64,000 bases of DNA from Thermoguttaceae bacterium (GTDB taxonomy: Bacteria > Planctomycetota > Planctomycetia > Pirellulales > Thermoguttaceae), in the NCBI GenBank assembly GCA_050943135.1, contig JBMNOP010000003.1:166191-230190 (forward strand), in the 5' to 3' direction. Shown here piece after piece: positions 4,482 through 25,436 of this stretch. The notes under the pieces are model-generated. The model had not been told where the DNA came from and did no database searches. It worked only from the letters and a program-made list of their open reading frames with translations. A program made the translations under genes and the position numbers. Numbering within the stretch: the first letter of the stretch is position 1; every line of letters begins with the position of its first letter.

Positions 4482-4586
4482 GTTGGTCTCCTTTTTTCGA
4501 ATGATGGTTTCTCTTTCACCGAAACCGTCGAGGTTCTTGATCACGTCGTTCGTTGTCATCAAGGGCAGACGGTCGTCCGGTTGATT

Positions 4587-5174: not shown

Positions 5175-5218
5175 GCCTCTCTCGTGGTTTGGGCGTCTCG
5201 CTTTGGGTGGGGTGCCGC

Positions 5219-7741: not shown

Positions 7742-7771
7742 TGATCGCCTCGGTCGATCCCGACGACCTTC

Positions 7772-8416: not shown

Positions 8417-8432
8417 TCGTTTCGGCCGAATA

Positions 8433-9650: not shown

Positions 9651-9849
9651 CGGTCTATCAACTCCTTTCGGTCGCGGGCAACGTCCCCTCCCGGTAAAAC
9701 CCTGCGCGATTATAACGATGTTGCCGCGGCGGGTCAATCGATGCTGTCGGCCGGATGTCCCGGAAAAAGGTTCGCGACCTTGCCCGACAAAATCGCGAAC
9801 CTTCGGTTTTTACGCGCAAGACCGGCAACCGCCGCCCCAGGCGGAAAGG

Positions 9850-12708
9850 TCAGAGTTCATCTTGTTCGATGCGCGGGATTTCGGGATGTGTGTCCAGGAA
9901 CCGGCGATAGGCCTCGGCGTTCTCCCCCTCGTCAAGGGGAAGGTTGGTCGTCCAGTTCAGGCTGTTCCCCTCGTCAAAGAGGGTGCCCGAAGCCAAGATG
10001 ATTCCGATCTCGTCTTTCATGGTTTCCGCCTGGTCGGGACGGTCGACCAGCAGAGAGATTTGCGGTGCCAATTTCAGCGAGGGGACGGCGATATCGTCGA
10101 GATACTTTTTCCCGAGTTCAAGGTCGGCAAGAGGCTGATTCAGATCGACCCGCAAGAAAGATTTCATCCCCAACTCGGCGGCGAGGTTCGTAAGTTCGCG
10201 CAAGGTTTCCACGGTATTCGCGTAGGTGATCTCGGGGGTGCTGTTGTTCTCGGGGCTTGTGTGTGTCGAAAAGAGTACGGTATCGACGCCAAGGAGCGCG
10301 CCCTTCTTGAGAACCGCTTTCATCGTGGCCATCGCGCGTTCATACTCTTCTTCGTCGTTATTACTCAGGCGCAGGTCGGGGAAGAGATTGATCCCCGACG
10401 AGAAATCGACGGCAAGGTGAAGACCATGCCGACGGAACCATCCCGCTTCCCGGGCGACGGCCTCTTCCGAACGGAGATCGAAATAGCGCCAATCGAGGGT
10501 GATTCCGTCGTAATGTTCGAAGAAGGTCGGGCGGGCCAAGATTTCTTCCTTGGCCATCACCGGATGACGCAATTGCAGGAACCGTCCTTTCGGGGCAGGA
10601 GGGATCGGAAGGTCGTCGATCATCGCGGTTTTCTCTTCTTTGAGGGTTACCTCGAAGACCCGCACTTCGCCCACCGCGATGGTCGTGTCGGTATGCCTGC
10701 CGCGATCGAAATGGTCGTAACCGACCGGCATGAATCCGGGCCGGGTCCGTTCCGTGTCGGGAACCGGAATTTCGCGAATCGAAGCGATTTCGCCGATCCG
10801 CGACCGGATGGCAAACGGCAGTTCAAGGAGCCCATGATTAAAGACCCCGACGGTCCAGACGCGATCGGCTTTCCGGCAGACGATGCTGCCGAGATCTTGC
10901 CCCACATCGAAGAGGACCGTTTGGTCGAGTTCGCGGCGATAAATCTTTTCGGCGTGGGCCAGGAGCGGATACGGGTTTTCAAGAACCTGATCGACGCGGA
11001 TCGGAAGGTACCCTTCCACCGCCCGCTCGCCCGGGATTCCGAACGGGGTGTTCAAGACCAGGACCGTCCCTTTCCCATGGGAAACTTCGAATGCCGCGGT
11101 CTTCCCCCCGCAGGAGGCGAGTACCCGCGCGTCTTCCGGAACCGAGACCGAAATCAGGGTAAAGGGTTGCGATTCCCTCACGCTTTCGTTCCCGTCGGCA
11201 AAAAGAATTTCGGCGCCTGCCTCGAAGCGGTCAGACCCGAGGATTCTCATCCCGAGGAACCCGTCGAGCGCTTCGAGATTCCCGGCGGTGAAAACAAGGC
11301 GCCCTCCCCCTTCGACGTAGTCGGTCAGCTTGCGGATCAGTTCGGGGTTACGCGACGTCGGCTTCCCTTCCAGATTCCTGCGCGGGTCGCCTCCGGTCAG
11401 CCGATCGGCGACAATCAGGAGGGGGTAGCGGTTCAGGATCCAGAGGGGCGCGTCGGTAAGGAGCGAGTCCGTTGCGTCTCCGTAAGGAGTCGCCGACAAA
11501 AACCCTCTTTCGTTATAAAAGTAGGAAGAGGACTGATAGTCCGGATAGATCAGGCCGAGCAGGTTATTGTTGAGATAATCTCCCGGACCGTAGGGGATAT
11601 TCCCCCAAACACGGTAAGATCTCGGCGAGTAGAGATGCCGCGGGAACGACCAGCCGCAGAAGAAATCGCAGAGGAGGGCAACCGGCGTGATCATCGTTCC
11701 CGGGTCCCCATGTTCTTTGACCCATCTTGCGGCATCGCGCTGAATTTCCCCGATCGGGGTCAGCTCGCCTTCGCTGAACCAGCCGTTTTCGAAGCCGACG
11801 GCGGCCGAATTGTAGAGGATATGGGAATAGAGCAAACGTTTCATCAGGCTGAGGCTCGTCCCCTGATCGATCTGATTCGGATACGATTTGAATCCCCAGC
11901 GGTTGTAGATCGAGGCGTTTCCGAACCAGAGGACGCCGTACTGTTTCCCCGCGCCGCGGATCCAGGAATAGTAGACCTGGCTGTTCGGAAGCGCCTGCGC
12001 CGTTTCGGCCCCGATCAGGGTGTAGATCCCTTCTTTGAGGAAATAATGGCCGAAATTCAGGGAAACGAGGGTCGCGAGGCGGTTCCCCAGATCGTCTCCG
12101 AGGCGTTCGAAATGGCGTTGGAAGTTGAGGTACTGATTGAAACGGCATCGGGTCACCGGAGTCATCCTCGATGCGTAGAACCCGATATACCGGCCATCCT
12201 GTTCCCCGTTATCCATCCCGAGCCATTGGGGGCCGAGGATTTTTTCGAGCGTTTCGAAACTCTTTTTCGCAGGGCGATTCTGTACCCAGGTTCCGCGTCC
12301 GTAAGGGCCGCTGCCCGGCACGTATCCCCAGAGGTCGAACACGAAGATCCCGTTCTTTTTCGCCCATTCGGCGAATTCGTCGAGATTATCGATATGTATC
12401 GTGCTATGGTGGGGCCAAATGATCGTTCCCAGGTCGGCCTCGGCGTAAGGCCGATACATTTCATCGAAATCGACCCCTCGGGTCCGGCCGGTTTCCTTGT
12501 CGCGGACGGTCCTGATTCCACGGCAGGTCATGAAGAGGACCTCGTCGCCGAACGTTTTCCGGTCGGGCGGCGTAACGGCAAACCGACCGCGGTCGGGATG
12601 CTCGGCCGGATCATAGCGGTTAACGTAGATCCGTTTGGGCGGATCGGCGGCAAAAAGGGACGAAACCCCGAGAAGTACGACACAGAGGATCATACGGACG
12701 GAACTCAT
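9850..12708 (-). CDS. Large secreted protein (953 aa), probably carbohydrate-active; C-terminal region resembles a xylose-isomerase-like TIM barrel
   Basis: ATG at 12708 (MSSVRMILCVVLLGVSSLFAADP signal peptide) with a GAGG ribosome-binding site. Aromatic-rich central region. The C-terminal 250 aa (GLHLAVDFSSGINLF...LGVDTVLFSTHT...) looks like a sugar-phosphate isomerase/epimerase fold. The long antisense ORF 9487..12735 is rejected as a shadow. Confidence 0.5.
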   Translation of the reverse strand: MSSVRMILCVVLLGVSSLFAADPPKRIYVNRYDPAEHPDRGRFAVTPPDRKTFGDEVLFMTCRGIRTVRDKETGRTRGVDFDEMYRPYAEADLGTIIWPHHSTIHIDNLDEFAEWAKKNGIFVFDLWGYVPGSGPYGRGTWVQNRPAKKSFETLEKILGPQWLGMDNGEQDGRYIGFYASRMTPVTRCRFNQYLNFQRHFERLGDDLGNRLATLVSLNFGHYFLKEGIYTLIGAETAQALPNSQVYYSWIRGAGKQYGVLWFGNASIYNRWGFKSYPNQIDQGTSLSLMKRLLYSHILYNSAAVGFENGWFSEGELTPIGEIQRDAARWVKEHGDPGTMITPVALLCDFFCGWSFPRHLYSPRSYRVWGNIPYGPGDYLNNNLLGLIYPDYQSSSYFYNERGFLSATPYGDATDSLLTDAPLWILNRYPLLIVADRLTGGDPRRNLEGKPTSRNPELIRKLTDYVEGGGRLVFTAGNLEALDGFLGMRILGSDRFEAGAEILFADGNESVRESQPFTLISVSVPEDARVLASCGGKTAAFEVSHGKGTVLVLNTPFGIPGERAVEGYLPIRVDQVLENPYPLLAHAEKIYRRELDQTVLFDVGQDLGSIVCRKADRVWTVGVFNHGLLELPFAIRSRIGEIASIREIPVPDTERTRPGFMPVGYDHFDRGRHTDTTIAVGEVRVFEVTLKEEKTAMIDDLPIPPAPKGRFLQLRHPVMAKEEILARPTFFEHYDGITLDWRYFDLRSEEAVAREAGWFRRHGLHLAVDFSSGINLFPDLRLSNNDEEEYERAMATMKAVLKKGALLGVDTVLFSTHTSPENNSTPEITYANTVETLRELTNLAAELGMKSFLRVDLNQPLADLELGKKYLDDIAVPSLKLAPQISLLVDRPDQAETMKDEIGIILASGTLFDEGNSLNWTTNLPLDEGENAEAYRRFLDTHPEIPRIEQDEL

Positions 12709-13179
12709 AAAAACCTCATCTTTCTTGTACCTTGAACGATCCGACGGGAGAAGGTCGGTACGGCTCCCTTTCCATTCCAACCATTCTACCCCGGGCGGAA
12801 TCGGACTTCAACTCTTTCGGCACGTCACTGAAAGGGGTGCCCGCCCACGGTAAAACGAGCGAAAGAAAAAGCGGGGAAGCCGCGCCGATTTTTAACCGAG
12901 GCTTTCTCAAAGGGTTGAAACGGCTCTAAAACGGGTGAATTGCGGAGACAGGGTGAAGAACGAGTCCGCGAAACAATTCGGGTTTTTTCAAAGGGGTTTC
13001 AAAATGATGCGAAGGCCCGACCGGAGGAATGGACGGTCGAGCCCTGCGAACTTTCCCGACCAACTTTTGACGATTTCGACCTCCGGCGAACGCCCGGGGA
13101 ACCTTCGATCGACAAAAGGCGGAAATCTTGAACACCGACCGGCGAGCCGATGGCCGGAAAGGAGAATTTGCGAAGAAGC

Positions 13180-13208
13180 TTGACAAACGAGAGGCGCTTA
13201 AGAATAAT
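13180..13208 (+). promoter_or_regulatory. Sigma70-like promoter (TTGACA-N17-AATAAT) inside a 640-nt ORF-free region
   Basis: The hexamers and the 17-nt spacer were read directly. It lies 214 nt upstream of the isomerase ATG at 13422. Confidence 0.35.
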
Positions 13209-13421
13209 TAAGAGGGGCGGGATTCGTTTTTCATCGTTGATTTCTCCCGCGCGGGGCAAATCGAGGGCAAGAGGTTCATGGCGACATACCCCGTTTTACT
13301 GCCCGGGAAAACGCGTTCCCCCCGGGACCGGGATTGATGTAACACAAAAGTGCCGTGCGATCGAATCTCCTCGACTCCGGCAGAGGAATTTACCGTTTTA
13401 TTTTGAAAGAAAGGTGATTTT

Positions 13422-14297
13422 ATGCTGACAAGACGCAATATGTTCAAGGCCTCGCTCATCGCCGGTGTCTCGGCCGCCGGGCTCGGTGGTTCGGCGTTTG
13501 CCGAAGAAGGAGCGAAACATTGCCGGGGCGCACGCGGTGCGCTCATCTACCCCGACCTTCTCGGATGGAAGATCGGCCCGCAGATCTACTCGTTCAATCG
13601 TTTCCCGTTCGACGAAGCGATCAAACTCGTTGCCAAATGCAACGTGAAGAGTTTCGAGCTCTTCAGCGGCCAGAAACTTTCGCGAGGGAGCGACGAGTCG
13701 GTCGGTCCCAACATGTCGAAAGGGGCGTTTAAACGCTTCCGGGAACTCCTGATCGAAAACAACGTCGTCCCGCACGCCATGGGGGTTTGCCCGGCCGACC
13801 GCGCGCATTTCGAGTTCGCCGCCGCTTGCGGTTTCTCGGTCATCAACGTCGAACCACAATTCGAAGATCTTCCGCAGGTCGATAAACTCGCCCAGGAGTA
13901 TAAGATCAACGTCGGGATTCACAATCACCCGAAAGCGTCCCGTTATTGGGATCCGAAAGTCGTTCTCGAACGTTTGGCGGACTGCAGCGACTGGATCGCT
14001 GCCTGTTGCGATACCGGCCACTGGCTCCGGAGTGAGCTCGACCCGCTCGAATGCGTGAAAATGTTTAACGGCCGGATCGCCAGTTTCCATATCAAAGACC
14101 TCACCCCCGAAAAGGTCGATATTCCTCTCGGTCAAGGGGTCTGCAAGATCGCCGACATTCTGGCCGTCTGTGCCGAAGCGCGTCTCCGGATCCCCTTCTC
14201 GATCGAATACGAATCCGATTGGGACAACAACCAGCCGCTGGTGGCCGAAGGGATCAAATTCTTCAACGAAACGGCGCGGAAGATCGTCGAAGGGTGA
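13422..14297 (+). CDS. Tat-signal sugar phosphate isomerase/epimerase (xylose isomerase-like TIM barrel)
   Basis: The signal peptide is MLTRRNMFKASLIAGVSAAGLGG. The ...INVGIHNHP..., ...CDTGHW... and ...FHIKD... blocks are typical of the AP-endonuclease-2/xylose-isomerase-like TIM barrel family. GAAAGAAAGG ribosome-binding site. Confidence 0.7.
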   Translation: MLTRRNMFKASLIAGVSAAGLGGSAFAEEGAKHCRGARGALIYPDLLGWKIGPQIYSFNRFPFDEAIKLVAKCNVKSFELFSGQKLSRGSDESVGPNMSKGAFKRFRELLIENNVVPHAMGVCPADRAHFEFAAACGFSVINVEPQFEDLPQVDKLAQEYKINVGIHNHPKASRYWDPKVVLERLADCSDWIAACCDTGHWLRSELDPLECVKMFNGRIASFHIKDLTPEKVDIPLGQGVCKIADILAVCAEARLRIPFSIEYESDWDNNQPLVAEGIKFFNETARKIVEG

Positions 14298-14318
14298 GGC
14301 CCGAAACCCAATCACCGA

Positions 14319-14357
14319 CTTTACCCCGCCGAAATCTCTGATACCGGCGGGGTAAAG
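14319..14357 (+). terminator. Perfect 13-bp inverted repeat (CTTTACCCCGCCG ... CGGCGGGGTAAAG) downstream of the isomerase gene
   Basis: Read directly from the sequence. There is no T-tract after it, so it is a hairpin or operator rather than a canonical intrinsic terminator. Confidence 0.35.
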
Positions 14358-14428
14358 CGGTTGACGCCGCGGTTTCGAAACTTGTTGATCGATCACCGCC
14401 GATTGATTTATCTTCGAAAGGGAGCCGT

Positions 14429-14483
14429 CCCCACCCACTCCGTGGGGGGCAATGTTCGTTGCCATCGATGATTTTTATTTTTG
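14429..14483 (+). terminator. Two consecutive hairpins followed by a T-rich tract (intrinsic-terminator-like), 60 nt upstream of the helicase gene
   Basis: The first hairpin is CCCCAC-CCACTCC-GTGGGG. The second is GGCAA-TGTTCG-TTGCC, followed by ATCGATGATTTTTATTTTTG. Confidence 0.4.
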
Positions 14484-14544
14484 CCGGAGCTATCCGCCGT
14501 TCGGACAGAGAAAAATACCGTAACCGCACCTGAAAGAGACCGGA

Positions 14545-17500
14545 ATGCTCAAGCTCGAAGAGATCACGAAAGGAATCCAAATCGCGGGGCTGGTTCCCGG
14601 AGAATTGGTAAATGTCGTCAGCGCGGACTCTTTCGGCGAGTCGTTGAAAATCACCTACAGCCTGGCCTCGGGAGGTGTTTCCGAGACCCTTCTGAACCGG
14701 TCCGACGAAGAACGGCTTTCGAAGGCGGAAATGGGGCTGGCGTGGTCGTTTGATTCCGACCCCGGGGATTTTCGTCGGGCGTTGGAGGCGTTCCGTATCC
14801 GGCTCGGTTTTCTCTTCGATCGGATGACGGCCATCCACTCGTCGCTGGTCGAACCTCTTCCGCACCAGATCTCTGCCGTGTACGATCGGATGTTAAAGCA
14901 AAACCCGCTGCGTTTCGTCCTTGCCGACGATCCCGGGGCGGGGAAAACGATCATGGCGGGTCTCCTGATCAAGGAACTCCTGATCCGCTCCGACACCCAG
15001 CGGATCCTGATCCTCGTGCCCGGCGCCCTGGTCGACCAGTGGCAGGAAGAGATGTTAAGGAAGTTCGGCATCCGTTTCGAAACTTTTATTTCCCAGGGGA
15101 ACGGGGCCGGAAACTTTTTTAACGAGCAGAACCTGGTGATCCTCAGGCTCGACCAATTCGCGCGCAACGAGGAACTCAAATCGGCCCTTGAAGATTCCAC
15201 CTGGGACCTGGTCGTTGCCGACGAGACCCACCGCCTTTCCGCCCACCGGTTTTCCTCCAGTACAACCAAGAAGACCAAACGGTACAAGTTGGCGGAACTC
15301 CTCGCCCGGAACAGTCGCCATTTTCTGATGATGACGGCGACCCCGCACAGCGGAAATAACGCGGATTTTCATCTCTGGTTGTCCCTCCTGGACCCCGACC
15401 GCTTCTACCTGGGAAGCAGTCCCGACGAGCCGGCCGTCCCCGAGGTTTCCGACGTGATGCGCCGCATGGTCAAAGAAGATCTTCGGAAATTCGACGGAAG
15501 CCCCCTGTTCCCGGAGCGGCGGGCCGAAACAATTCTTTTCCCCCTTTCCGAGAAAGAGCGCGATCTTTACGGGCAGGTTACCGAATACGTTCGTTCCGAG
15601 ATGAACCGCGCCGAGCGACTTCAGAAGCAAGAGCGGAACAACCTCGGGTTCGCCCTGACCATCTTGCAGCGCCGGTTGGCGTCGAGCCCGCAGGCCATCT
15701 ACGAATCGTTGCAGCGACGCCGCCGATTCCTCGAAAAGGATTTGCAAAACCGTCGGGAACATCCGGAAAAATACCCGAGGAGGGAACCCGAAACAGCGCC
15801 CTCCTCCGACTTGCGCGCGGTACGGGTACCCTTCGATCTTTTCGCCTACGACACGGAAAAAGAGGACGACGACTTCTACGACCCGGACGACGAACAAAAC
15901 GCCGACTACGTCGTCGCCGAGCGATCGATCGACGAGGTCGAAAAGGAGATCGAGACCGTCGACCTCCTGGTAGCTCAGGCCAAAAAGGTTGTCGATTCCG
16001 ATGAAGACTGCAAATGGAACGAACTTTCCAAAACGTTGCAAAAACCGCAGTTCGTCGGACCGGACGGCAAGCGGCTGAAACTGATCATCTTCACCGAATA
16101 CCGCGACACCCTCGACTACCTCGAACGAAAGATCAAAAACCTGTTGGGGGTTCCCGAGGCCGTCCTCGTGATTCATGGGGGAATAAAATTAACGGAACGA
16201 AACGAGATTCAAGAGAATTTTCGTAACGATCCCGATGTTTCGATCCTGATCGCCACCGATGCCGCGGGGGAAGGAGTCAATCTCCAGCGGGCCCACCTGA
16301 TGATCAACTACGATATCCCGTGGAACCCGAACCGGCTCGAACAGCGGTTCGGCCGCATCCATCGGATCGGGCAGACCGAACGCTGCTTTATGTGGAACAT
16401 GGTTGCCGAAGGAACCCGGGAAGGAGAAGTCTTTCGTCGCCTCTTCTTAAAACTCGAGGCCGCGCGCGAAAAGTTGGGCGGGCGTGTTTTCGATATCCTG
16501 GGAAAGGTTTTCGACAAAGGGAAACTCAACCAACTGCTGATTCAGGCGATCATGCAAAAAGAGAGCCCCGAAGACCAAAACAAGATCAACAAAGAGATCG
16601 ACGGGACGCTCGATCCTGCCCATCTCAACCGGGTGATTCGGGAAAACGCGCTCGTGCAACAAGCCTTTACCCCCGAGACACTCTATTCGGTCAAAGCCGA
16701 AATGGATAAAGCCGAGGCCCGCAAACTTCAGCCCTGTTACGTCCGAAATTTTTTTACCGAAGCGTTTCAACGTTATGGCGGAGAGATTCGCCGGCGGGAA
16801 GAAGGACGGTACGAACTTCCGTTTATCCCCCCGGCCATACGAAACAACCAAAAGACGTTAAAAAAGATCGGCGGTGCCATCGCCAAAAAGTATGACCGAA
16901 TCTGTTTCGAGAAAGAAAAGATTCGGGTGGCCAAGTCCGGAAGACAGGCCGAGTATCTCCATCCGGGACACCCGCTGGTCCGTTCCCTTACCGACCTGAT
17001 CCTGGAAAACCACTCGGCCCTCCTGAAACCGGGCACGGTCATGTTCGATCCGAGCGACGACGGTACGGAACCTTCCCTGATCTTCATGATCGACCATTCG
17101 GTTACCGAAACCCTCGGCGGAAACGAGGTTTCCCGTCGATTGCAATTCGTTCGGATCCGGCCCGACGGAAGTGTCGAGAACGCCGGCTGGGCCCCCCACC
17201 TCGACCTGGAGCCCCCGTCCGACGAGGTTCTGAAGATTGCCGAAGAGGTCAAGAAGGAGTCGTGGCTGAACCGGGACATCGAAAAGCTCGCGCTCGACTA
17301 CGCGATTCCGAACCTCTGCACCGATCATTTTCAAGAGGTCCGGCAAGAGCGTCGGCGCCATGTCGACAAGACGCTCCGGGCCGTGAAAGAAAGATTGACC
17401 CAGGCCATCAAAGGACTGGAACGCCGAATTCTTGTGGCTCGCGACGAGGTGAAAAGGGACGTTCAAATCAAGGTCAACCTGCAAAACCTCGAAAAAACGT

Positions 17501-18069
17501 TCGCCGAGCTCAGGAATCGCCTCGAAACCCGCGAAAAAGAGCTTGAACAGATGCGTTCCCTCTCGAACAAGCCCCCGGTCGTGATGGGGGGGATCCTTCT
17601 GATCCCGAAAGGCCTGTTGGACAAGAAACGGGGGATTCCGGCCAACACGGCCGATGCCGAAGCGCGCAAAGCCGTCGAGGCGATCGCGATGAACCTGGTC
17701 ATGGAAACCGAGAGATCGTTCGGCCACACGGTGATCGACGTTTCCGCCGAGAAATGCGGTTGGGACATCACCGCCAGGCCGACCGCGAAAAACCCGGACG
17801 GGTCCGCGAAAGAGGATCGCCACATCGAGGTCAAAGGACGCCGCAAAGATGCTCCGACGATACTGTTCACGCACAACGAGGTCGTTTACGCGATGAATCA
17901 GCAAGATAAGTTCATTTTGGCGATCGTTCTTGTCGACGGAGATAAAGTCGAAGGCCCCTTCTATCTCCGTTGTCCGTTCAGCCGGGAACCCGATTTCGGC
18001 GTCGCGAGCGAAAACCGTTACCTCGACATCCTTCTGGATATGGCGGTCGCCCCGGAAGAGACCCTGTAA
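14545..18069 (+). CDS. SNF2/DEAH-family superfamily-2 helicase (1174 aa) with a C-terminal DUF3883-like PD-(D/E)xK nuclease-like module
   Basis: PHQ motif; motif I DDPGAGKTIMAG; motif II VVADETHRL; motif III MMTATP; motif VI QRFGRIHRIGQ. The C-terminal 120 aa contain GWDI...HIEVKGRR (D...ExK), typical of the DUF3883/restriction-endonuclease-like fold. Confidence 0.85.
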   Translation: MLKLEEITKGIQIAGLVPGELVNVVSADSFGESLKITYSLASGGVSETLLNRSDEERLSKAEMGLAWSFDSDPGDFRRALEAFRIRLGFLFDRMTAIHSSLVEPLPHQISAVYDRMLKQNPLRFVLADDPGAGKTIMAGLLIKELLIRSDTQRILILVPGALVDQWQEEMLRKFGIRFETFISQGNGAGNFFNEQNLVILRLDQFARNEELKSALEDSTWDLVVADETHRLSAHRFSSSTTKKTKRYKLAELLARNSRHFLMMTATPHSGNNADFHLWLSLLDPDRFYLGSSPDEPAVPEVSDVMRRMVKEDLRKFDGSPLFPERRAETILFPLSEKERDLYGQVTEYVRSEMNRAERLQKQERNNLGFALTILQRRLASSPQAIYESLQRRRRFLEKDLQNRREHPEKYPRREPETAPSSDLRAVRVPFDLFAYDTEKEDDDFYDPDDEQNADYVVAERSIDEVEKEIETVDLLVAQAKKVVDSDEDCKWNELSKTLQKPQFVGPDGKRLKLIIFTEYRDTLDYLERKIKNLLGVPEAVLVIHGGIKLTERNEIQENFRNDPDVSILIATDAAGEGVNLQRAHLMINYDIPWNPNRLEQRFGRIHRIGQTERCFMWNMVAEGTREGEVFRRLFLKLEAAREKLGGRVFDILGKVFDKGKLNQLLIQAIMQKESPEDQNKINKEIDGTLDPAHLNRVIRENALVQQAFTPETLYSVKAEMDKAEARKLQPCYVRNFFTEAFQRYGGEIRRREEGRYELPFIPPAIRNNQKTLKKIGGAIAKKYDRICFEKEKIRVAKSGRQAEYLHPGHPLVRSLTDLILENHSALLKPGTVMFDPSDDGTEPSLIFMIDHSVTETLGGNEVSRRLQFVRIRPDGSVENAGWAPHLDLEPPSDEVLKIAEEVKKESWLNRDIEKLALDYAIPNLCTDHFQEVRQERRRHVDKTLRAVKERLTQAIKGLERRILVARDEVKRDVQIKVNLQNLEKTFAELRNRLETREKELEQMRSLSNKPPVVMGGILLIPKGLLDKKRGIPANTADAEARKAVEAIAMNLVMETERSFGHTVIDVSAEKCGWDITARPTAKNPDGSAKEDRHIEVKGRRKDAPTILFTHNEVVYAMNQQDKFILAIVLVDGDKVEGPFYLRCPFSREPDFGVASENRYLDILLDMAVAPEETL

Positions 18070-18091
18070 AAACCGAGTGTTGAAAACAAAA

Positions 18092-20998
18092 ATGGCAAAG
18101 ATCAAAGCCCCCAAAAAACTGATTGAAGTGGCGTTGCCGCTCGACGAGATCAACGCCGAGGCCGCGCGCGAGAAATCGATCCGGCACGGGCACCCGTCGA
18201 CCCTCCACCTTTGGTGGGCACGCCGCCCGCTTGCCGCCGCCCGGGCCGTTCTTTTTGCGCAACTGGTCAACGACCCCGGGGGGACCCGGGGCTGGAAAGC
18301 GGGGCTGACCAAAGAAGACGCGAAAAAGAAACGCGACGAACTCTTCGAGATCATCCGCGACCTGGTCGTTTGGGAAAACGTGAATAACGAAGCGGTCCTC
18401 GATCGGGCCCGGGAAGCGATTCGCGAAAGTTGGCGCGAGACCTGCGCCCTGAACCAGGGCAGGCCGGGGTTCGACCCCGAAACCCTTCCCGCGTTCCATG
18501 ACCCGTTCGCCGGCGGCGGGGCGATCCCGCTCGAAGCGCAGCGGCTCGGCCTGGAAAGTCATGCCAGCGACCTGAACCCGGTTGCGGTCTTGATCAACAA
18601 GGCGATGATCGAAATCCCTCCCAGGTTTTTCGACTCGCCGCCGGTCGGGCCGGTGCCGCGGGGGGATACGGAAAAAGGGAAAGAGGCCTTTTCCGGAACC
18701 GCCGGGCTTGCCGAAGATGTCCGCCGTTACGGACTCTGGATCATGGAAGAGGCGAAAAAGCGGATCGGCGGCCTCTACCCCGACGTCGAAATCACCGAGA
18801 CGATGGCGAAAGGACGCCCCGACCTGGAACCGTACGTCGGTCAAAAGCTCACCGTGATCGCCTGGCTCTGGGCGAGGACGGTAAAAAGCCCGCACCCCGA
18901 CTTCGGTCATGTCGATGTGCCCCTTATTTCCAGTTTTGTGCTCTGTTCCAAAAAAGGGAAAGAGGTCTACCTGGAACCGGTGATCGAAGGCGATACGTAC
19001 CGGTTTGAGGTAAAAGTCGGGACACCGCCAAAAGGCGCGAAAAATGGAACAAAACTCGGTCGCGGCGCGAATTTCCGATGCCTGATGAGCGGTGTGCCGA
19101 TCGAACCGGGACACATCTACAGCGAGGCTCAATCAGGGAATATGGGTGAACGTCTCTTAGCCATTGTCGTGGAAGGTGACAAGCAACGGGTTTATCTTTC
19201 CCCATTACCCACTCATGAATTCAACAATCTAAACATTGAGCCGCCATGGAAGCCAAGGGTGGAAATGCCAAAAAATCCACGCTGGTTTTCACCGCCGGGT
19301 TACGGTCTGAAAACTTACGGAGACCTCTTCACCCCGCGCCAACTTACGGCCCTCAACACCTTTTCCGACCTGGTCCAAGAAGTCAGGGAAAAGACGATCG
19401 AGGATGCCAAGCATGCCGGAATGCCCGACGACGGAATCCGACTTGCCGAAGGAGGACGCGGCGCCACCGCCTACGGCGATGCCATTGCCGTTTACTTGGC
19501 GTTCGTGATCGACAAGCTCACGGATTATGGTTCGACAATATGTAGCTGGCATTCAAGTCGTGAAATAATCAGAAATACATTTGGTCGACAGGCGATCCCC
19601 ATGACGTGGGACTATGCCGAGGGGAACTTTTATTCCGACTCAACCGGGAGCTTTACAAGTATGCTTGACTGGGTTGTAAAGACCATAGCGCTACTCCCGG
19701 CAAAGCCCCCCTCTTATGCTCATCAAGCCGACGCGCAGACACAGGCGATCTCCCAGGAAAAGATCGTCTCCACCGATCCGCCCTACTACGACAACATCGG
19801 CTACGCCGACCTTTCCGACTTTTTCTATATTTGGCTGCGCTGCAACTTAAAAGGAGTCTATCCCGACCTCTTCGCCACGTTGGCCGCCCCGAAATCCGAG
19901 GAACTTGTTGCCACGCCGTATAGGCACGGGGGGAAAGAAAATGCCGAGAAGTTCTTCCTCGACGGGATGACGCTGGCGATGCAGAACCTGGCCCAACGGG
20001 CGCACCCGGCCTTTCCGGTAACGATTTACTACGCCTTTAAGGCGTCCGATACCAACGGCGACGGGACGAGCAACACCGGTTGGGCAACCTTTTTGGAGGC
20101 TATCCTCAAAGCCGGATTCTCCATCACCGGAACCTGGCCGCTTCGTACGGAACTTTCGAACCGAATGATCGGTATGGGGACCAACGCGCTGGCCTCTTCG
20201 ATCCTCTTGGTTTGCCGGAAGCGCGAACGCGCGCGCGAAGAGATCAGCCGCCGTGAATTCCTGACCGAACTCCGCGAAACGATGCCGACCGCTCTCCGCG
20301 AGATGATCGGCGAGGGGAGCGCCCGATCGATCGCTCCCGTCGACCTGGCCCAGGCGGCGATCGGACCGGGCATGGAAATCTTCTCGAAGTATCGCGCCGT
20401 CTTGAAGGCCGACGGGGCCGCGATGACGGTTCGCGAGGCGCTGATAGAAATCAATCGGAACATTTCCGACTACCTCGACCCGGAAGGGAGCGGGTTCGAC
20501 GCGCCGACCCTCTTTTGTAACGAATGGTTCAAACAAAACCGGTGGGAAGCGGGGGAATTCGGCGTTGCCGACACGCTGGCACGCGCCAAGGGGACGAGCG
20601 TCCCCTTCGTCAAAGAGGCGGGGATCATTCAGGCCGATCGCGGAAAGGTCAGGCTCCTCCCCTGGGAGGAATATCCCGACGATTACGACCCCTCGCGCGA
20701 TAAGAACCGCCCGATTTGGGAGTCGTGCCATCACCTGATCCGCGTCTTGCGCCGGCAGGGAGAGGTTGCCGCGGGGCGGCTCCTTGCGCAAATGCCCGAG
20801 ACGATCGACGGCATCCGGCAACTGGCCTACTTTCTCTACCTCCTTTGTGAACGGAAGGGGGACGCCGAAAACGCCCGATCTTACAACGAGCTGATCACCG
20901 GTTGGCACGGGGTGATGGCGGCGTTTATCAAAGCGTCGGAAGAACTGAAGCGTCCCGTGAAGCGGGAAGACCAAGAAACATTGAATTTCGGAGATTGA
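18092..20998 (+). CDS. DUF1156-family N6-adenine DNA methyltransferase (968 aa)
   Basis: ATG at 18092 lies 22 nt after the helicase stop. The hallmark N-terminus is [57 protein letters not shown] is motif I-like (AdoMet-binding) and [12 protein letters not shown] is motif IV (DPPY). Confidence 0.8.
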
Positions 20999-21002
20999 TC
21001 GC

Positions 21003-23870
21003 ATGAAACCGTGGAGAGAGATTGCCCAGCCGCACCGGGACGTTCTCGAAGGGAGAATGAAACAGGCCGATTTCGCCGTCGACATTTCGGCGGTGGCCCG
21101 GGGAAACGCCTCGCCGGAATATCAGGACGCCAAAGAGTTCTTTTCGCGAACGTATATCACCGAGGGGTTGCGTCATCTGCTGATTTCGGTGGTCCGCCGC
21201 CTGAACCGTCTCGACGGAGATCCGGTGATCCAATTGCAGACCAATTTCGGCGGGGGAAAGACGCACACCCTTCTGGCGGTTTACCATCTGGCGACAAGCG
21301 GGATGCCGACCTCGGAACTCGAAGGGATCCCCGAAGTCCTCGACCAGGCGGGAATCGACACGCTCCCGAAGGCGAAAGTCGCGGTCATCGACGGGACCCG
21401 CCTTTCTCCGAACCAGCCGTCCAACGTCGGGAAACTCGAAATCCGGACGATCTGGGGAGAACTCGCTTACCAGTTGCTCGGGTCGGAAGGGTATCGACTC
21501 CTTGAGGCGAGCGACCGGTCGGGAACCGCCCCCGGGAAAGAGGTGGTGGCCGAAATTCTCCGACTGGCCGCCCCTTGCGTGATCCTGCTCGACGAGGCGG
21601 TCGCGTTCTTTCGTCAACTCAACCAACCGAACCTTACGGCCGGAAGTTATGAAGCGAACATCTCCTTCGTTCAGGTTCTCACCGAAAGCGTGAAAGCCGT
21701 CCCCGACGCGGTCCTTCTGGCCTCGATCCCCGAATCGGAATCGGAGGCCGGGGGATTGTTCGGTCGGACCGTCCTCAACACCCTCGAAAAGATTTTCGCG
21801 CGGCTCGAAAATGTCTGGAAACCGGTCGGCGCCGACGAATCGTTTGAAATCGTTCGCCGCCGTCTTTTTAAGAGCGCGGGAGCCCCTTCGGAAATCGACG
21901 CGGTCTGCCGCGAGTTTGAACATTATTACCGGCAGCATAAAGAATTGTTCCCCCCCGAAGTGCAGGAATCCCTCTATTTCGAACGGCTTCGGAGCGCGTA
22001 TCCGATTCATCCGGAATTTTTCGACCGGCTCTATTACGATTGGTCGACCCTCGATAATTTCCAGCGCACGCGCGGGATGTTGCAACAGATGGCGATGATC
22101 ATCCGGCACCTCTGGAACAGCGAGAGTCGCGGCGCGATGATCATGCCGGGTTCCCTTCCGCTCAACGACACGAACGTGCGGATCAAGAGTACGCAGTATC
22201 TCTCCCCCGGCTGGGATCAGGTGATCGAGTCGGAAATCGACGGGTCGAAGTCGAAACCGAAAAAGATCGACGGGACGGAAGCCCGGTTCGGATCGATTTC
22301 GGCAGCCGTTCGAACCACGCGAACGATCTTTCTCGGTACCGCCCCCTCGACCCCCGCCCAAGAGAACCGCGGGATCGATTTCGGTCGGATCCTGCTCGGT
22401 TGTGCCGAGCCGGGGCAGGAACCTTCGCTCTACTGGGATGTCTTAAAAAGGTTGCACGATACGCTCCATTACCTCTACGTCGACAAAAAGCGTTATTGGT
22501 TCGATACGCGGCCGAACCTGCGCCGGGAAATGGAATCCCGAAAAACGAAATTTGCCGCCGATTTTAAGCGGCTGCGCGAGACGATCCACGATCTCCTGCG
22601 GGAGTTGATCGGAAGCCAATCCGATTTCGCAGGCGTTCATCTTTTCGCCCCGAACGAGGATATCCCGGACACGATCGACCGGGGACTCCGTTTGGTCTTC
22701 ACGGAACCGGAAAGAAAAAACGCCTATTCCGCCGAAAACCGCGACAACACCTACGCGCGGATCCTCGACATTTTGGAATATCGCGGAACGACCCCGCGGA
22801 TCCGTCGGAACCGCCTCGTCTTCGTGGTTCCCGACATGCCCGGCATCGACAACCTGAACGACCAGTGCGCCACCTACCTGGCCTGGAACGAAATCGTCGA
22901 GGACGGGAGTACCGGCCGTCTGAACATGGACACCCAGCGTCTGAACCTGGCAAAGGAGCAAAGGAAGACCGCCGCCGAGATCTTTCGTCGCGCCGTTCCG
23001 GAATGTTACCATTCTCTCTTGGTTCCTTTCCAAGATCCCGGCCGAAAAGTCGATTTCGATTACCATCGTCTTTCCTACGGCACCGAAAAGATGACCCGGG
23101 TGATTTGGAATTCGTTGAAAGAAAACGAGTTGGTCATCGACCGATGGTCGGAAATCCATCTTAAAAACATCCTGGAAAAGAGTTACCTGAAAGAGGGCGT
23201 GTCCGACGTTTCCGTCAAGCGGGTCTGGGAAGATACCTGCAACTACCTCTCGATGCCCCGCCTGAACGACGAGTCGGTTTTTTGCGAAGCGGTCGCCGAA
23301 GGTGTTGCGAAGGGGCTTTTCGGTTACGCGTCGGGAAAAGAGGGGGAAACGTATATCGGTTTTGAATTCCGTAGGAATCCGAGCCGAATCCTCCTCGACG
23401 GAGACTCGCTCCTGATCGGGCAAGAGGCGGCCGAGGATTATCAAAAAGGACTCGACGCGGCGGCAAGCCGGGCCGTTTCGGACCCGGACCGGAGCGCTTG
23501 GGGCGGTACCGAAGAAACCACCTCTCCGGCGTCGCTCTCCCCTTCCCTTTCGGCGGGCGGCTCGGGGTCGGAATCGCAGGAGCTTCCCGACACGTCGGAA
23601 AGTTCCGCGGAAGGTGAAAATCTTTTCTTCGTCTCGATTGAACTGGACCCCGAAAAATCGGGACTCGGGGTCGATATCAGTGACATCATCGAAGCGACCG
23701 CGTCGGTATTCGTTGGAAAGCCGGGGGTGAACGTGAAGATCAGACTCGATATCGAGGCCGAGGCGAAGACCGCGTTCGACGCCGGAACGGTGAGGGCGGT
23801 TAAGGAAAATTGCCGGCAACTCGCTTCCGACAAAAACCTCGAGATCCAACCGAATTTCGACACCAAATGA
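21003..23870 (+). CDS. DUF499-family P-loop ATPase (955 aa)
   Basis: ATG lies 4 nt after the methyltransferase stop. P-loop-like [18 protein letters not shown] and Walker-B-like [12 protein letters not shown] are present. The protein is large, with an acidic Ser/Gly-rich linker near the C-terminus. Confidence 0.75.
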
Positions 23871-24102: not shown

Positions 24103-24432
24103 ATGGGTGAAACAACGTTTGAAATCGTCAGGAACTATGGTGGCATGGACCAGCTCGAGAAGCTGAACGATCGTGCCCTGGAACTGAAAGCGCTCCTCAA
24201 GAAGGAGTTTTTGGGAAGGTTCTATCCCAAGTCCCAGCCGGTCGGCGACGAAATGCTCCGCCATATCCTGGTCCGTCAACTCTATCTGGCTTGGGCGCGT
24301 ACGGTCGTCGAACGCGAACCCAAAATCAAAGAGACGGTCGAAGAGCTCGACTACGCCGAAAAACAGATTTCGGCCTGGCGGCTCGGGATCATCCGAGTAC
24401 CGCTTTCGGTGCTCCTTCTTGAAAATCTCTGA
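24103..24432 (+). CDS. Small hypothetical protein (109 aa), no recognizable family
   Basis: A strong SD (AAGAAGGGAGACAGGGT) precedes the ATG. It is predicted helical with no signal peptide. It is convergent with tatD. Confidence 0.45.
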   Translation: MGETTFEIVRNYGGMDQLEKLNDRALELKALLKKEFLGRFYPKSQPVGDEMLRHILVRQLYLAWARTVVEREPKIKETVEELDYAEKQISAWRLGIIRVPLSVLLLENL

Positions 24433-24503: not shown

Positions 24504-25436
24504 TTAGGGGAGTCGAAAGAGTCGGCGCGCGTTTTCGGTTGTCTGCGCGACGATTTGCGAGATGTTTGTCTCGCGCAGTTCCGCCAGCCTGCGAGCGGTC
24601 CAGGCCGACATGATCGGCTCGTTCCGCTCGAGTTTTCCGCGGAACGGATGGGGGATCAGGAAAGGGGAATCGGTCTCTAAAAGGATCCTGTCTTGCGGCA
24701 CGATCTTTGCCGCCTCGCCGATCGGCGCGAACTTGTTGCCGGTAAAGGTAACGTTCCCGGTAAACCCGAGGTAGAAACCGAGTTCGAGGAGTTCCGATGC
24801 CGTCGAGGGACCGCCGCTATACGAGTGGACCACCCCTTGAAGCGGCGGAAGGGCGAGGAGCTTTTCGACCTGCGGTTCGGCGAGCGGGCCGAACCCCGGC
24901 CCGTCGCTCGGCGCTTCCCCCGCTTCCCACGCTCGGAACGCCGTCATGCAGCGCACCAATTCCTTTTCGGCGTCACGACAATGAATGATGATCGGCAGCC
25001 CCTGCTCTTTCGCCAAGAGGGAATGCCGCAAAAGATATTCGAATTGAAGTTCGAGCGGAGAAGCGTTCCAATAGAGGTCGAGCCCCGTCTCGCCGATCGC
25101 CACGGTGGCGGGTCGACGGGCCAGGGCAACGATCGACGGCCAGTCGCCCGAAGTCATTTCGGTCAGGTGGTTCGGGTGGATTCCCGCCCCGGCATAAAGG
25201 TCGGGGTAAGACGCCGCAAGCGTCGCCGCCGCGGCGCTCGAGGTCGCGGTGATTCCCGGTAAAACCATTCCCCGAACGACAAACCGGATCGGGCCCGACT
25301 CGATCGTTTTCCCCCTGATATCCGGAAACACCCCTTCCCGCGCCCGGTCGAGAACGTTCTGCCGGTCTTTGTCGAATTTTTCAAGGTCAAGGTGTGCGTG
25401 GGTGTCGATGATTTCCAGCGGTTTGTCGTCGTGCAT
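24504..25436 (-). CDS. tatD: TatD-family metal-dependent hydrolase/DNase
   Basis: IDTHAHLD at the N-terminus, GETGLDLYW, HCRDA, and C-terminal LLETDSPFL are the TatD signature blocks. At 310 aa it is longer than typical because of an Ala/Gly-rich insertion. Confidence 0.8.
   Translation of the reverse strand: MHDDKPLEIIDTHAHLDLEKFDKDRQNVLDRAREGVFPDIRGKTIESGPIRFVVRGMVLPGITATSSAAAATLAASYPDLYAGAGIHPNHLTEMTSGDWPSIVALARRPATVAIGETGLDLYWNASPLELQFEYLLRHSLLAKEQGLPIIIHCRDAEKELVRCMTAFRAWEAGEAPSDGPGFGPLAEPQVEKLLALPPLQGVVHSYSGGPSTASELLELGFYLGFTGNVTFTGNKFAPIGEAAKIVPQDRILLETDSPFLIPHPFRGKLERNEPIMSAWTARRLAELRETNISQIVAQTTENARRLFRLP

What the first reader, a model, noticed from the sequence alone, without database searches (positions are those of the whole stretch)
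14545..23870. Compact helicase-nuclease / DUF1156 methyltransferase / DUF499 ATPase cassette: candidate anti-phage defence system
Three very large genes sit on one strand (1174, 968 and 955 aa) with 22-nt and 4-nt intergenic gaps, so they are almost certainly co-transcribed and translationally coupled. The first protein carries SNF2/DEAH helicase motifs (GAGKT, DETH, TATP, QRFGRIHRIGQ). The second carries the diagnostic DUF1156 N-terminus (…[28 protein letters not shown]…) together with FAGGG and DPPY methyltransferase motifs. The third carries a DUF499-type P-loop (FGGGKTHT) and a Walker B (ILLDEAV). From established knowledge, this particular trio (DUF499 ATPase + DUF1156 methylase + helicase with DUF3883) recurs in prokaryotic defence islands and was predicted by comparative genomics to be an R-M-like immunity system. 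I believe, but cannot verify here, that DUF499/DUF1156 genes also occur in a recently named methylation-associated defence system (MADS). Its mechanism is essentially unknown: what is methylated, what senses non-self, and what the ATPase does have not been established. In this window it is embedded between a sugar isomerase and TatD/CsrA, not in an obvious mobile element.
Basis: partly seen in the sequence, partly recalled or inferred. Interest (0 to 1): 0.85.

Follow-up and report, generated by a model that had tools for sequence, protein, structure and literature searches.

The report
Known Hma anti-phage defence operon
This is an intact, compact copy of the already named Hma (Type-1 BREX-related) anti-phage system, made of a helicase-nuclease, a DNA adenine methylase and an AAA+ ATPase, in a Thermoguttaceae (Planctomycetota) genome; it is a textbook member of a very widespread family, not something new.

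Summary
Three co-directional genes of 1174, 968 and 955 aa lie at 14545-23870 with 22-nt and 4-nt gaps, and every quoted motif is present. The domain calls are also right: SNF2 + Helicase_C + NOV_C (formerly DUF3883), DUF1156, and DUF499.

The cassette is not an unnamed candidate. All three proteins match the PADLOC models HmaA, HmaB and HmaC end to end, at 1566, 1555 and 1222 bits. Hma was named in 2021. In 2024 a Halomonas HmaA was shown to restrict phage T4 and to nick DNA. In 2026 Hma was reclassified as the Type-1 DUF499-centred BREX-related (BR) system, found in about 2,400 taxa. Its sister system, Type-2 (Gao_RL/MANTIS), has been dissected biochemically.

The window copy has every catalytic motif intact. 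It lacks the optional HEPN fusion on HmaC and has no embedded genes. It sits in ordinary chromosomal context with host-like codon usage.

The suggested MADS link is not supported: the PADLOC mad models seen in the library do not match HmaB or HmaC.

Most likely mechanism, inferred by homology: HmaC loads HmaB, HmaB methylates host DNA, and HmaA cuts unmethylated DNA.

Interest is low.

The parts
14298..14544 (+). Upstream intergenic region of the operon. It holds a 25-nt-arm hairpin at 14312-14364, probably the terminator of the preceding TIM-barrel gene. The promoter is not mapped.
   Evidence: Sequence read; inverted repeat I6. The sigma-70 scan found no convincing + strand promoter here.
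14545..18069 (+). hmaA: Swi2/Snf2-family ATPase fused to a C-terminal PD-(D/E)xK (NOV_C) nuclease, 1174 aa.
   Evidence: PADLOC HmaA 1566.5 bits, covering 1-1173 of the protein against 1-1175/1176 of the profile. Pfam SNF2-rel_dom, ResIII, Helicase_C, NOV_C. 52% identity over the full length to Magnetococcus marinus MC-1 HmaA (P0080). Best Foldseek hit RapA 6bog_A, E 3.9e-23.
14545..14724 (+). HmaA aa 1-60: small beta-barrel, consistent with the Tudor-like N-terminal domain described for BR helicases.
   Evidence: AlphaFold model has strands at 12-17, 20-30, 33-40 and 45-50, with pLDDT 76-87. No domain-level fold search was possible.
14842..16464 (+). HmaA aa ~100-640: Snf2 ATPase core, with motif I GAGKT131-135, motif II DETH226-229, motif III TATP264-267 and motif VI QRFGRIHRIGQ600-610.
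   Evidence: Motifs located. All are invariant in the 17-sequence alignment A1. Sequence matches to RapA and Snf2 structures.
17032..17607 (+). HmaA aa ~830-1021: alpha+beta domain with two long coiled-coil helices inserted (the RapA/BrxHII-type C-terminal domain).
   Evidence: Model has strands at 832-882, helices at 926-970 and 979-1002, and a strand at 1012-1021, with pLDDT about 70-85. This matches the description in PMC12839542 section 27.
17662..18066 (+). HmaA aa ~1040-1174: NOV_C PD-(D/E)xK nuclease with catalytic D1074, E1095-x-K1097 and E1112.
   Evidence: Pfam NOV_C 70.8 bits at 1044-1135. D1074, E1095, K1097, E1112, A1126 and V1128 are invariant in A1. They follow the same D...ExK...E...A.V pattern as D1084/E1104/K1106/E1121/A1135/V1137, the residues conserved in Halomonas HmaA, of which D1084/E1104/K1106/E1121 are needed for defence and nicking (PMC11232893). 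The correspondence is by motif pattern and spacing, because the Halomonas protein was not aligned here. The model shows an alpha-beta-beta-beta-alpha-beta core.
18092..20998 (+). hmaB: DUF1156 N6-adenine-type DNA methyltransferase, 968 aa.
   Evidence: PADLOC HmaB 1555 and 1546 bits, full-length. Pfam DUF1156 103 bits at aa 14-87 (nt 18131-18352). Motif I DPFAGGG137-143 (nt 18500-18520) and motif IV DPPY562-565 (nt 19775-19786) are conserved in at least 97% of 51 homologues.
21003..23870 (+). hmaC: DUF499 AAA+ ATPase of the BrxC/ORC-Cdc6 type, 955 aa, without the N-terminal HEPN fusion.
23433..23867 (+). HmaC aa 811-955: hypervariable C-terminal tail. A Ser/Gly/Glu-rich disordered linker (aa ~824-872) precedes a small terminal domain.
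   Evidence: Identity to homologues falls to 7-21% over aa 811-900, against a 39% mean. pLDDT is below 50 at 824-872 and 55-73 after that.

Best explanation
The region is a complete three-gene Hma operon, also called a Type-1 DUF499-centred BREX-related (BR) system. It is a restriction-modification-like anti-phage and anti-plasmid system.

Proposed working:
(i) HmaC is a BrxC-like, ORC/Cdc6-clade AAA+ ATPase. It uses ATP to load the methyltransferase HmaB onto short, probably asymmetric, DNA target sites.
(ii) HmaB (DUF1156 N-terminus, motif I FAGGG, motif IV DPPY) N6-methylates an adenine at these sites on host DNA, marking self. It also supplies the sequence specificity for restriction.
(iii) On incoming DNA with unmethylated sites, the HmaB-HmaC complex recruits or licenses HmaA. 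HmaA's Snf2 motor translocates on dsDNA and its C-terminal PD-(D/E)xK (NOV_C) domain nicks or cleaves the invader.
(iv) The hypervariable C-terminal tail of HmaC may add invader sensing.

What is shown here: gene content, order, full-length family membership, intact catalytic residues, and the BrxC-like and RapA-like folds.
What is shown elsewhere on orthologues or sister systems: HmaA-dependent T4 restriction and nicking, and ATPase-loaded hemimethylation with MTase-directed restriction in MANTIS.
What is inferred: everything about this locus's activity, its target motif, and whether Type-1 couples methylation to restriction as Type-2 does.

My confidence in the identity is about 0.97. My confidence in the RM-like mechanism as stated is about 0.55-0.6.
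For: Identity. PADLOC HmaA, HmaB and HmaC match full-length at 1566, 1555 and 1222 bits, and Pfam gives the matching domains. Gene order A->B->C on one strand is kept in 53 of 54 related genomic loci that hold all three genes. Catalytic motifs are invariant or at least 97% conserved in all three proteins.

Subtype. The C-terminal PD-(D/E)xK domain is present. No HKD domain, no DUF3780 gene and no PglZ gene are present. This is Type-1 as defined in PMC12839542.

Function, from the literature. A Halomonas HmaA reduces T4 plating. This needs motif VI R610 and the D/E/K/E nuclease residues, and the C-terminal domain nicks supercoiled plasmid with Mn2+ (PMC11232893). In MANTIS (Type-2 BR), the AAA+ MtsA loads the MTase MtsC, 6-bp sites are hemimethylated, and restriction needs all components with specificity set by the MTase TRD.

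Distribution typical of a defence system. Hma occurs in 26 phyla. There are 5,851 HmaC-like 50%-identity clusters. HmaC homologues occur on 124 plasmids and in no phage record.
Against: No experiment exists for this locus. In the only Type-1 study, HmaA alone was sufficient against T4, and T4 grown on an HmaB-overexpressing host was not protected. This does not fit a simple R-M model, although the assay was heterologous and lacked HmaC. Type-1 has no MtsB (DUF3780), which MANTIS needs for methylation, so the loading and activation step may differ. No methylation motif has been reported for a Type-1 HmaB in the papers I could read. The HmaA and HmaC models are of modest confidence (pLDDT 60.9 and 70.1, pTM about 0.4). 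The RRM fold of the HmaC tail could not be confirmed.
Confidence: 0.8

Rival explanations
1. HmaA is an autonomous sensor-effector, similar to the single-helicase defences Nhi or Hna or to abortive-infection-like dormancy. It attacks phage DNA or replication intermediates regardless of methylation. HmaB and HmaC would then be a separate or merely regulatory module, rather than providing self/non-self marking.
For: Halomonas HmaA alone protected E. coli from T4 as well as the larger construct did. Pre-growth of T4 on an HmaB-expressing host had no effect. The authors describe a non-canonical Abi-like phenotype. They also report that 15-19% of hmaA genes lack hmaB or hmaC nearby (PMC11232893).
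Against: The trio and its order are kept in 53 of 54 related loci that hold all three genes. Catalytic motifs of HmaB and HmaC are as conserved as those of HmaA, which argues for joint function. In the homologous Type-2 system, restriction strictly needs the ATPase and the MTase. The T4 test used a heterologous host, a phage with modified cytosines, and no HmaC. A constitutively active Snf2-nuclease without self-marking would be expected to be toxic.
Confidence: 0.17
2. The cassette has been domesticated for a non-defence role, such as epigenetic regulation or DNA repair/remodelling, because it sits among housekeeping and carbohydrate-metabolism genes with no mobile-element signature.
For: No integrase among the ORFs scanned, no tRNA and no flanking direct repeats. 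GC, GC3 and codon usage are indistinguishable from the neighbours. The locus is identical in three metagenome samples.
Against: Hma systems are typically found alone, outside defence islands (bioRxiv 10.1101/2024.01.29.577857), so this context is normal for the family. The nuclease catalytic residues are intact. The HmaC tail is hypervariable, as expected for an arms-race protein. The closest relatives are in another phylum at only 53-56% identity, consistent with horizontal spread.
Confidence: 0.02
3. The cassette belongs to another named methylation-based system: MADS, MANTIS/Gao_RL, BREX type 3 or DISARM.
For: There is weak partial similarity. DrmD and BrxHII models match the helicase part of HmaA. 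The Gao_RL 'DUF499' and 'DUF1156_MTase' models match parts of HmaC and HmaB.
Against: All of these hits are far below the HmaA/B/C scores and below curated cut-offs: DrmD 384.5 against 610, DUF499_antiphage 158 against 1200, DUF1156_antiphage 123 against 1000, phospholipD_antiphage 176 against 1100. No PglZ, BrxA, DUF3780, HKD or DrmA/B/C genes are nearby. No mad model hits HmaB or HmaC.
Confidence: 0.01

Closest known systems
Hma system (HmaA/HmaB/HmaC; Payne et al. 2021, PADLOC), also called the Type-1 DUF499-centred BREX-related (BR) system (Rakesh & Krishnan 2026)
   Same: The same three proteins match full-length in the same order and on the same strand. The domain architecture is the same: Tudor-like N-terminus, Snf2 core, alpha+beta domain and PD-(D/E)xK nuclease; DUF1156 N6-MTase; DUF499 AAA+ ATPase. 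The catalytic residues are the same as in the tested Halomonas HmaA.
   Different: Only instance-level features differ. There is no N-terminal HEPN on HmaC, whereas 27 of 54 related HmaC ORFs and 1370 of 2446 taxa in the paper have one. There are no embedded genes, whereas about 63-76% of Hma loci have some. The host is a Thermoguttaceae MAG. The proteins are at most 64% identical to any other sequence found.
MANTIS / Gao_RL (Type-2 BR system)
   Same: Homologous DUF499 AAA+ ATPase and DUF1156 MTase, plus an SF2 helicase-nuclease effector. It is RM-like and is the best available mechanistic model: ATPase-loaded hemimethylation and MTase-directed restriction.
   Different: MANTIS has a fourth gene (MtsB, DUF3780). 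Its helicase carries an N-terminal HKD/PLD nuclease instead of a Tudor-like N-terminus and a C-terminal PD-(D/E)xK. The NCBIfam equivalog cut-offs are missed by roughly 6- to 8-fold.
BREX type 3 (BrxC, PglXI, BrxHII, PglZ, BrxA, BrxF)
   Different: No PglZ, BrxA or BrxF genes are present. HmaA adds an active nuclease. HmaB has the DUF1156 N-terminus. No BrxC sequence model matches HmaC even at E<=1.
DISARM (DrmD Snf2 helicase)
   Same: DrmD models align with HmaA up to about aa 1000 (395 and 330 bits).
   Different: The score is below the DrmD equivalog cut-off (384.5 against 610). There are no DrmA, DrmB, DrmC or DrmMI genes. DrmD lacks the NOV_C nuclease.
Type III / Type ISP restriction-modification
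   Same: The logic is the same: one MTase gives specificity for both modification and cleavage, and an ATP-driven helicase-nuclease is the effector. Hemimethylation of asymmetric sites is likely.
   Different: Hma has an extra AAA+ loader (HmaC). The motor is of the Snf2 type, and the protein families differ.
MADS (methylation-associated defence system)
   Same: Both are methylation-based, ATPase-containing defence systems.
   Different: MADS models are in PADLOC-DB (mad3 and mad8 were seen). None matches HmaB or HmaC.

Membership tests
Hma system (PADLOC definition) | A protein matching the HmaA HMM (Snf2 helicase with NOV_C) | tested here: met
   PDLC00659 HmaA, 1566.5 bits, E 0, covering 1-1173 of 1174 aa.
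Hma system (PADLOC definition) | A protein matching the HmaB HMM (DUF1156 methylase) | tested here: met
   PDLC00660 and PDLC00661 HmaB, 1555 and 1546 bits, full-length.
Hma system (PADLOC definition) | A protein matching the HmaC HMM (DUF499 AAA+ ATPase) | tested here: met
   PDLC00662 HmaC, 1221.8 bits, covering 1-941 of 955 aa.
Hma system (PADLOC definition) | All three genes once each, on the same strand, with at most three embedded genes between neighbours | tested here: met
   The gaps are 22 nt and 4 nt on the + strand. The curation rule is quoted.
Type-1 DUF499-centred BR system | DUF499 ATPase with a BrxC-like, ORC/Cdc6-clade AAA+ core and intact Walker A/B | tested here: met
Type-1 DUF499-centred BR system | Hypervariable C-terminal RRM/ferredoxin-like domain on the DUF499 protein | tested here: inconclusive
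   Hypervariability is confirmed (7-21% identity over aa 811-900). The model of aa 873-955 has pLDDT 55-73 and shows only two helices, so the fold is not resolved.
Type-1 DUF499-centred BR system | N6-MTase with an N-terminal DUF1156 helical domain, motif I, and a (D/N/S)PP(Y/F/W) motif IV after a large insert | tested here: met
   DUF1156 103 bits at aa 14-87. DPFAGGG137-143 and DPPY562-565 are at least 97% conserved.
Type-1 DUF499-centred BR system | Swi2/Snf2 helicase carrying an additional C-terminal active PD-(D/E)xK nuclease | tested here: met
   NOV_C 70.8 bits. D1074, E1095, K1097 and E1112 are invariant. The model shows an alpha/beta nuclease core.
Type-1 DUF499-centred BR system | N-terminal Tudor domain and a RapA/BrxHII-like overall helicase architecture | tested here: inconclusive
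   The model gives a four-strand beta-barrel at aa 12-50 (pLDDT 76-87) and an alpha+beta domain with a coiled-coil insert. RapA is the top full-length Foldseek hit, E 3.9e-23. No domain-level search was done, and the overall pLDDT is 60.9.
Type-1 DUF499-centred BR system | Absence of the Type-2 and Type-3 markers (DUF3780 gene, HKD nuclease, PglZ, iSTAND) | tested here: met
   There is no room for extra genes inside the operon. Neighbours within about 10 kb are TIM-barrel, NagX-like, Tag, TatD, CsrA, autotransporter and GGDEF genes. HmaA has no PLD/HKD Pfam hit.
Type-1 DUF499-centred BR system | Confers phage or plasmid restriction, with methylation of a defined motif protecting self | not testable with these tools
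   This needs cloning, plaque assays and a methylome. Only orthologue data exist (PMC11232893).
MANTIS / Gao_RL (Type-2 BR) | NCBIfam equivalogs DUF499_antiphage, DUF1156_antiphage and phospholipD_antiphage above their cut-offs | tested here: not met
   158.1 against 1200, 122.6 against 1000, and 175.8 against 1100 bits.
MANTIS / Gao_RL (Type-2 BR) | A standalone DUF3780 (MtsB) gene and an N-terminal HKD nuclease on the helicase | tested here: not met
   No such ORF or domain was found.
BREX type 3 | PglZ, BrxA and BrxF genes alongside BrxC, PglXI and BrxHII | tested here: not met
   Pfam on the flanking ORFs and the JGI gene calls show none of them.
DISARM | DrmD equivalog score above its cut-off, together with DrmA, DrmB and DrmC | tested here: not met
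   NF038317 gives 384.5 bits against a cut-off of 610. No partner genes are present.
MADS | Proteins matching the mad1-8 models | tested here: not met
   HmaB hits 8 PADLOC families and HmaC hits 2, even at E<=1. None is a mad model, although mad3 and mad8 models exist in the library. For HmaA only the best 25 of 54 hits were visible; none of those is mad.

The most novel reading that the evidence does not exclude
Type-1 systems lack MtsB, the small protein that MANTIS needs to activate methylation. In this minimal three-gene, HEPN-less form, the activator or methyl-reader role could instead be played by a domain of the effector itself: the Tudor-like N-terminus or the degenerate REase-like domain of HmaA. 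The nuclease-helicase would then license the methyltransferase, a reciprocal coupling of restriction and modification not described for any R-M-like system. The published finding that HmaA alone restricts T4 would then reflect an unlicensed default 'on' state that HmaB and HmaC restrain on self DNA.
Probability: 0.12. Interest if true: 0.55.

Novelty: already known. Interest (0 to 1): 0.18.

Why it matters
It matters little as a discovery. PADLOC's published models match all three proteins end to end, so an automated defence annotator should label this locus Hma. The family already has thousands of members, a name, a phylogenetic classification and first experiments.

Its modest value is practical. 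It documents an intact Hma system in a Thermoguttaceae (Planctomycetota) MAG whose NCBI annotation is only generic ('helicase-related', 'DUF1156 domain-containing', 'ATP-binding protein').

It is also one of the minority of fully compact, HEPN-less, un-embedded versions (7 of 54 related loci). That makes it a clean minimal construct for the one open question in this family: how Type-1 BR systems couple HmaC/HmaB methylation to HmaA restriction without an MtsB-like activator.

Tried and rejected
1. Mobile-element boundaries. No tRNA in the window. No convincing flanking direct repeats; the best are chance-level 14-31-nt matches. No integrase or transposase among the large ORFs of the 64-kb window that I scanned. 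GC, GC3 and codon usage of hmaABC equal those of the neighbours. I therefore dropped the genomic-island idea.

2. Alternative genomic contexts. The three contigs that carry the exact HmaB are the same sequence as the window, at 99.97-100% identity. An apparently different downstream gene in L003 is a contig-end artefact.

3. A fourth associated gene. The 109-aa ORF at 24103-24432 has no Pfam, NCBIfam or PADLOC hit. It has no homologue next to Hma in 80 related loci. I rejected it as a system component.

4. Solved structures by sequence. HmaB and HmaC, searched as single sequences and as profiles, find nothing significant in the PDB. Only fold comparison revealed BrxC. Foldseek on the HmaC model was weak, with best E 0.01 and BrxC at E 0.033.

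5. The MADS connection. Two literature searches found no paper that assigns DUF499 or DUF1156 to MADS. The primary MADS paper is not in the held library. The PADLOC mad models do not hit HmaB or HmaC.

6. The sigma-70 promoter and terminator scan was uninformative for the operon boundaries.

7. Full-length AlphaFold models were only of moderate quality, so the Tudor and RRM assignments remain 'consistent', not proven.

Full report
OBSERVATION. The ORF scan and translations confirm three + strand genes at 14545-18069 (1174 aa), 18092-20998 (968 aa from its ATG) and 21003-23870 (955 aa). They are separated by 22 nt and 4 nt. Every quoted motif is present: GAGKT131, DETH226, TATP264 and QRFGRIHRIGQ600 in protein 1; FAGGG139 and DPPY562 in protein 2; GGGKT83 and LLDE195 in protein 3. 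Pfam gives exactly the predicted domains: SNF2-rel_dom, ResIII, Helicase_C and NOV_C (PF13020, formerly DUF3883) for protein 1; DUF1156 (103 bits) for protein 2; DUF499 (123 bits) for protein 3. The flanks are as described: a xylose-isomerase-like TIM-barrel gene upstream, and TatD and CsrA downstream.

WHAT IT IS. All three proteins match the PADLOC-DB models HmaA, HmaB and HmaC over their whole lengths, at 1566, 1555 and 1222 bits. The next-best families (DrmD, BrxHII, the Gao_RL 'DUF499' and 'DUF1156_MTase' models) score 4- to 10-fold lower and cover only part of each protein. NCBIfam agrees: the DISARM DrmD and Gao_RL equivalogs are hit far below their curated cut-offs (384/610, 158/1200, 123/1000 and 176/1100 bits). 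The locus is therefore a canonical Hma system.

LITERATURE. Hma (helicase, methylase, ATPase) was named by Payne et al. 2021, with 1,638 instances in RefSeq across 26 phyla (PMC8565338). Payne et al. 2024 showed that 62.7% of 1,485 Hma systems carry other defence genes embedded between the hma genes, and that Hma usually lies outside defence islands (bioRxiv 10.1101/2024.01.29.577857).

Liu et al. 2024 showed that Halomonas meridiana HmaA alone restricts T4 in E. coli. Restriction needs motif VI (R610) and the NOV_C residues D1084, E1104, K1106 and E1121. The isolated C-terminal domain nicks supercoiled plasmid with Mn2+ (PMC11232893).

[quoted passage not shown] Type-1 is the ATPase + DUF1156 MTase + Snf2 helicase with a C-terminal PD-(D/E)xK; it occurs in 2,446 taxa, 1,370 of them with a HEPN fused to DUF499. 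Type-2 has an HKD-helicase plus DUF3780. Type-3 has PglZ plus iSTAND (PMC12839542).

A September 2026 preprint dissected Type-2 (Gao_RL, renamed MANTIS). The AAA+ MtsA loads the MTase MtsC. With MtsB, 6-bp asymmetric sites are hemimethylated. Restriction needs all four proteins and both ATPases. Specificity is set by the MTase TRD, and inverted site pairs are preferred (10.64898/2026.09.23.753747).

TESTS OF MEMBERSHIP DONE HERE. HmaA: in an alignment with 16 homologues from Lentisphaerota to Vibrio and Magnetococcus (51-65% identity), all helicase motifs are invariant. So are D1074, E1095-x-K1097, E1112, A1126 and V1128. These follow the same D...ExK...E...A.V pattern as the conserved Halomonas residues, four of which were tested by mutation; I did not align the Halomonas protein itself.

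The AlphaFold model is of modest quality (pLDDT 60.9), but three parts are reasonably confident. They are an N-terminal four-strand beta-barrel (aa 12-50), an alpha+beta domain with two long inserted helices (aa 830-1021), and an alpha/beta nuclease core (aa 1040-1174). Its best Foldseek hit in the PDB is RapA (E 3.9e-23 over 1151 columns), and ZorD is also found. This is the RapA/BrxHII-like architecture described for BR helicases.

HmaB: motif I (DPFAGGG137-143) and motif IV (DPPY562-565) are at least 97% conserved in 51 homologues. DPPY indicates an amino (N6-A type) methyltransferase. This fits PADLOC-DB's 'DNA-adenine methylase' label, not the 'm5c' wording in the 2021 text.

COMPARATIVE CONTEXT. 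A scan of GTDB species genomes returned 80 loci from many bacterial phyla and one archaeon. In the 54 loci where all three genes are present, 53 keep the order A->B->C on one strand. Forty-one have gaps large enough for embedded genes. Half of the HmaC ORFs (27 of 54) carry a 160-190 aa N-terminal extension with the HEPN motif RNxWAH. The window copy is HEPN-less and fully compact, a combination seen in 7 of 54 loci.

The family is very large. There are 5,851 HmaC-like 50%-identity clusters at E<=1e-3 and 1,274 at E<=1e-30. Homologues occur on 124 plasmids and in no phage record.

HOST AND SETTING. The exact proteins are NCBI MGI5830937-39, from a Thermoguttaceae MAG on a 295-kb JGI contig. 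Their annotations are only generic. The nearest relatives are 53-56% identical and come from Lentisphaerota MAGs; one unnamed HmaA is 64% identical. The rest of the window encodes glycoside hydrolases, CarB, an autotransporter and similar genes. There are no tRNAs, flanking repeats or compositional breaks, and none of the large ORFs scanned is an integrase. This is a long-resident chromosomal copy, which is normal for Hma.

MECHANISM. By homology, the best-supported model is R-M-like. HmaC loads HmaB in an ATP-dependent manner. HmaB N6-methylates adenines in a short, probably asymmetric motif on host DNA and also supplies the specificity for restriction. HmaA translocates and nicks or cleaves unmethylated invader DNA through its PD-(D/E)xK domain.

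The identity and the intact catalytic sites are shown here. HmaA's defence and nickase activities are shown for an orthologue. The ATPase-loaded methylation and MTase-directed restriction are shown only for the Type-2 sister system.

The main rival is that HmaA acts autonomously. It rests on the T4 data, where HmaA alone was sufficient and HmaB pre-methylation had no effect. It is weakened by the near-universal conservation of the trio and of HmaB/HmaC catalytic motifs.

MADS. PADLOC-DB contains mad models: mad3 and mad8 are hit by an unrelated UvrA-like ORF in this window. HmaB and HmaC hit none. The only held paper that mentions both MADS and DUF499 treats them as different systems.

VERDICT. 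This is a standard member of an already named, classified and partly characterised defence family. Novelty: already known. Interest: low (0.18). The residual value is as a minimal, clean Type-1 construct for asking how methylation is activated without an MtsB-like protein.

Noticed in passing
window 5219-7741 (-), next to 7772-8416 (-): An 840-aa UvrA-like ABC ATPase (Pfam ABC_tran + UvrA_DNA-bind) matches the PADLOC MADS model mad3 at 230 bits over its C-terminal half (aa 507-834), and mad8 at 89 bits. It lies beside a 3-methyladenine glycosylase (Tag) gene. This is probably generic UvrA-type similarity and a repair paralogue rather than a MADS system. No other mad-like genes were seen nearby.
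   Followed up: partly
window 24103-24432 (+): A 109-aa ORF lies directly downstream of hmaC and is called as a gene by JGI. It has no Pfam, NCBIfam or PADLOC match, and no homologue beside Hma in 80 related loci. Its function is unknown, and it is apparently not part of the system.
   Followed up: yes
window 14312-14364: A near-perfect hairpin (25-nt arms, 80% complementary, 3-nt loop) starts 15 nt after the stop of the TIM-barrel gene and ends 180 nt upstream of hmaA. It is probably the terminator of the upstream gene, which implies that hmaABC has its own promoter in the remaining ~180 nt.
   Followed up: no
loci L037-L083 (e.g. L037:17456-17950, L041:11886-12458): In 27 of 54 related loci the HmaC ORF carries a 160-190 aa N-terminal extension with a conserved RN(x)WAH motif, the Swt1-type HEPN RNase. 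Two PLSDB plasmid hits (H6, H8) are annotated 'Swt1 family HEPN domain-containing protein'. The window's HmaC lacks this extension.
   Followed up: yes
locus L062 (Ereboglobus sp. MAG) 3597-13561: This is the only locus of the 54 in which hmaB and hmaC lie upstream of hmaA (order B-C-A) rather than A-B-C.
   Followed up: no
window 18092-20998 (HmaB) versus the literature: The 2021 paper that named Hma describes HmaB as an 'm5c methyltransferase'. The invariant DPPY motif IV, the PADLOC-DB description 'DNA-adenine methylase' and the 2026 classification all indicate an N6-adenine enzyme.
   Followed up: partly
window 14545-23870 versus homologues P0002-P0004 and P0131-P0143: The host MAG is Planctomycetota (Thermoguttaceae). 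The nearest named relatives of HmaA and HmaC (HmaB was not searched) are from Lentisphaerota (Victivallales, Oligosphaeraceae) at 53-56% identity. Codon usage is nevertheless fully host-like. This suggests an old transfer within the PVC group.
   Followed up: partly
window 24504-25436 (-): The TatD-family gene downstream gives a weak partial match to the PADLOC QatD model (E 4.6e-10, aa 191-306). No QatA, QatB or QatC genes are present, so it is most likely a housekeeping TatD.
   Followed up: no
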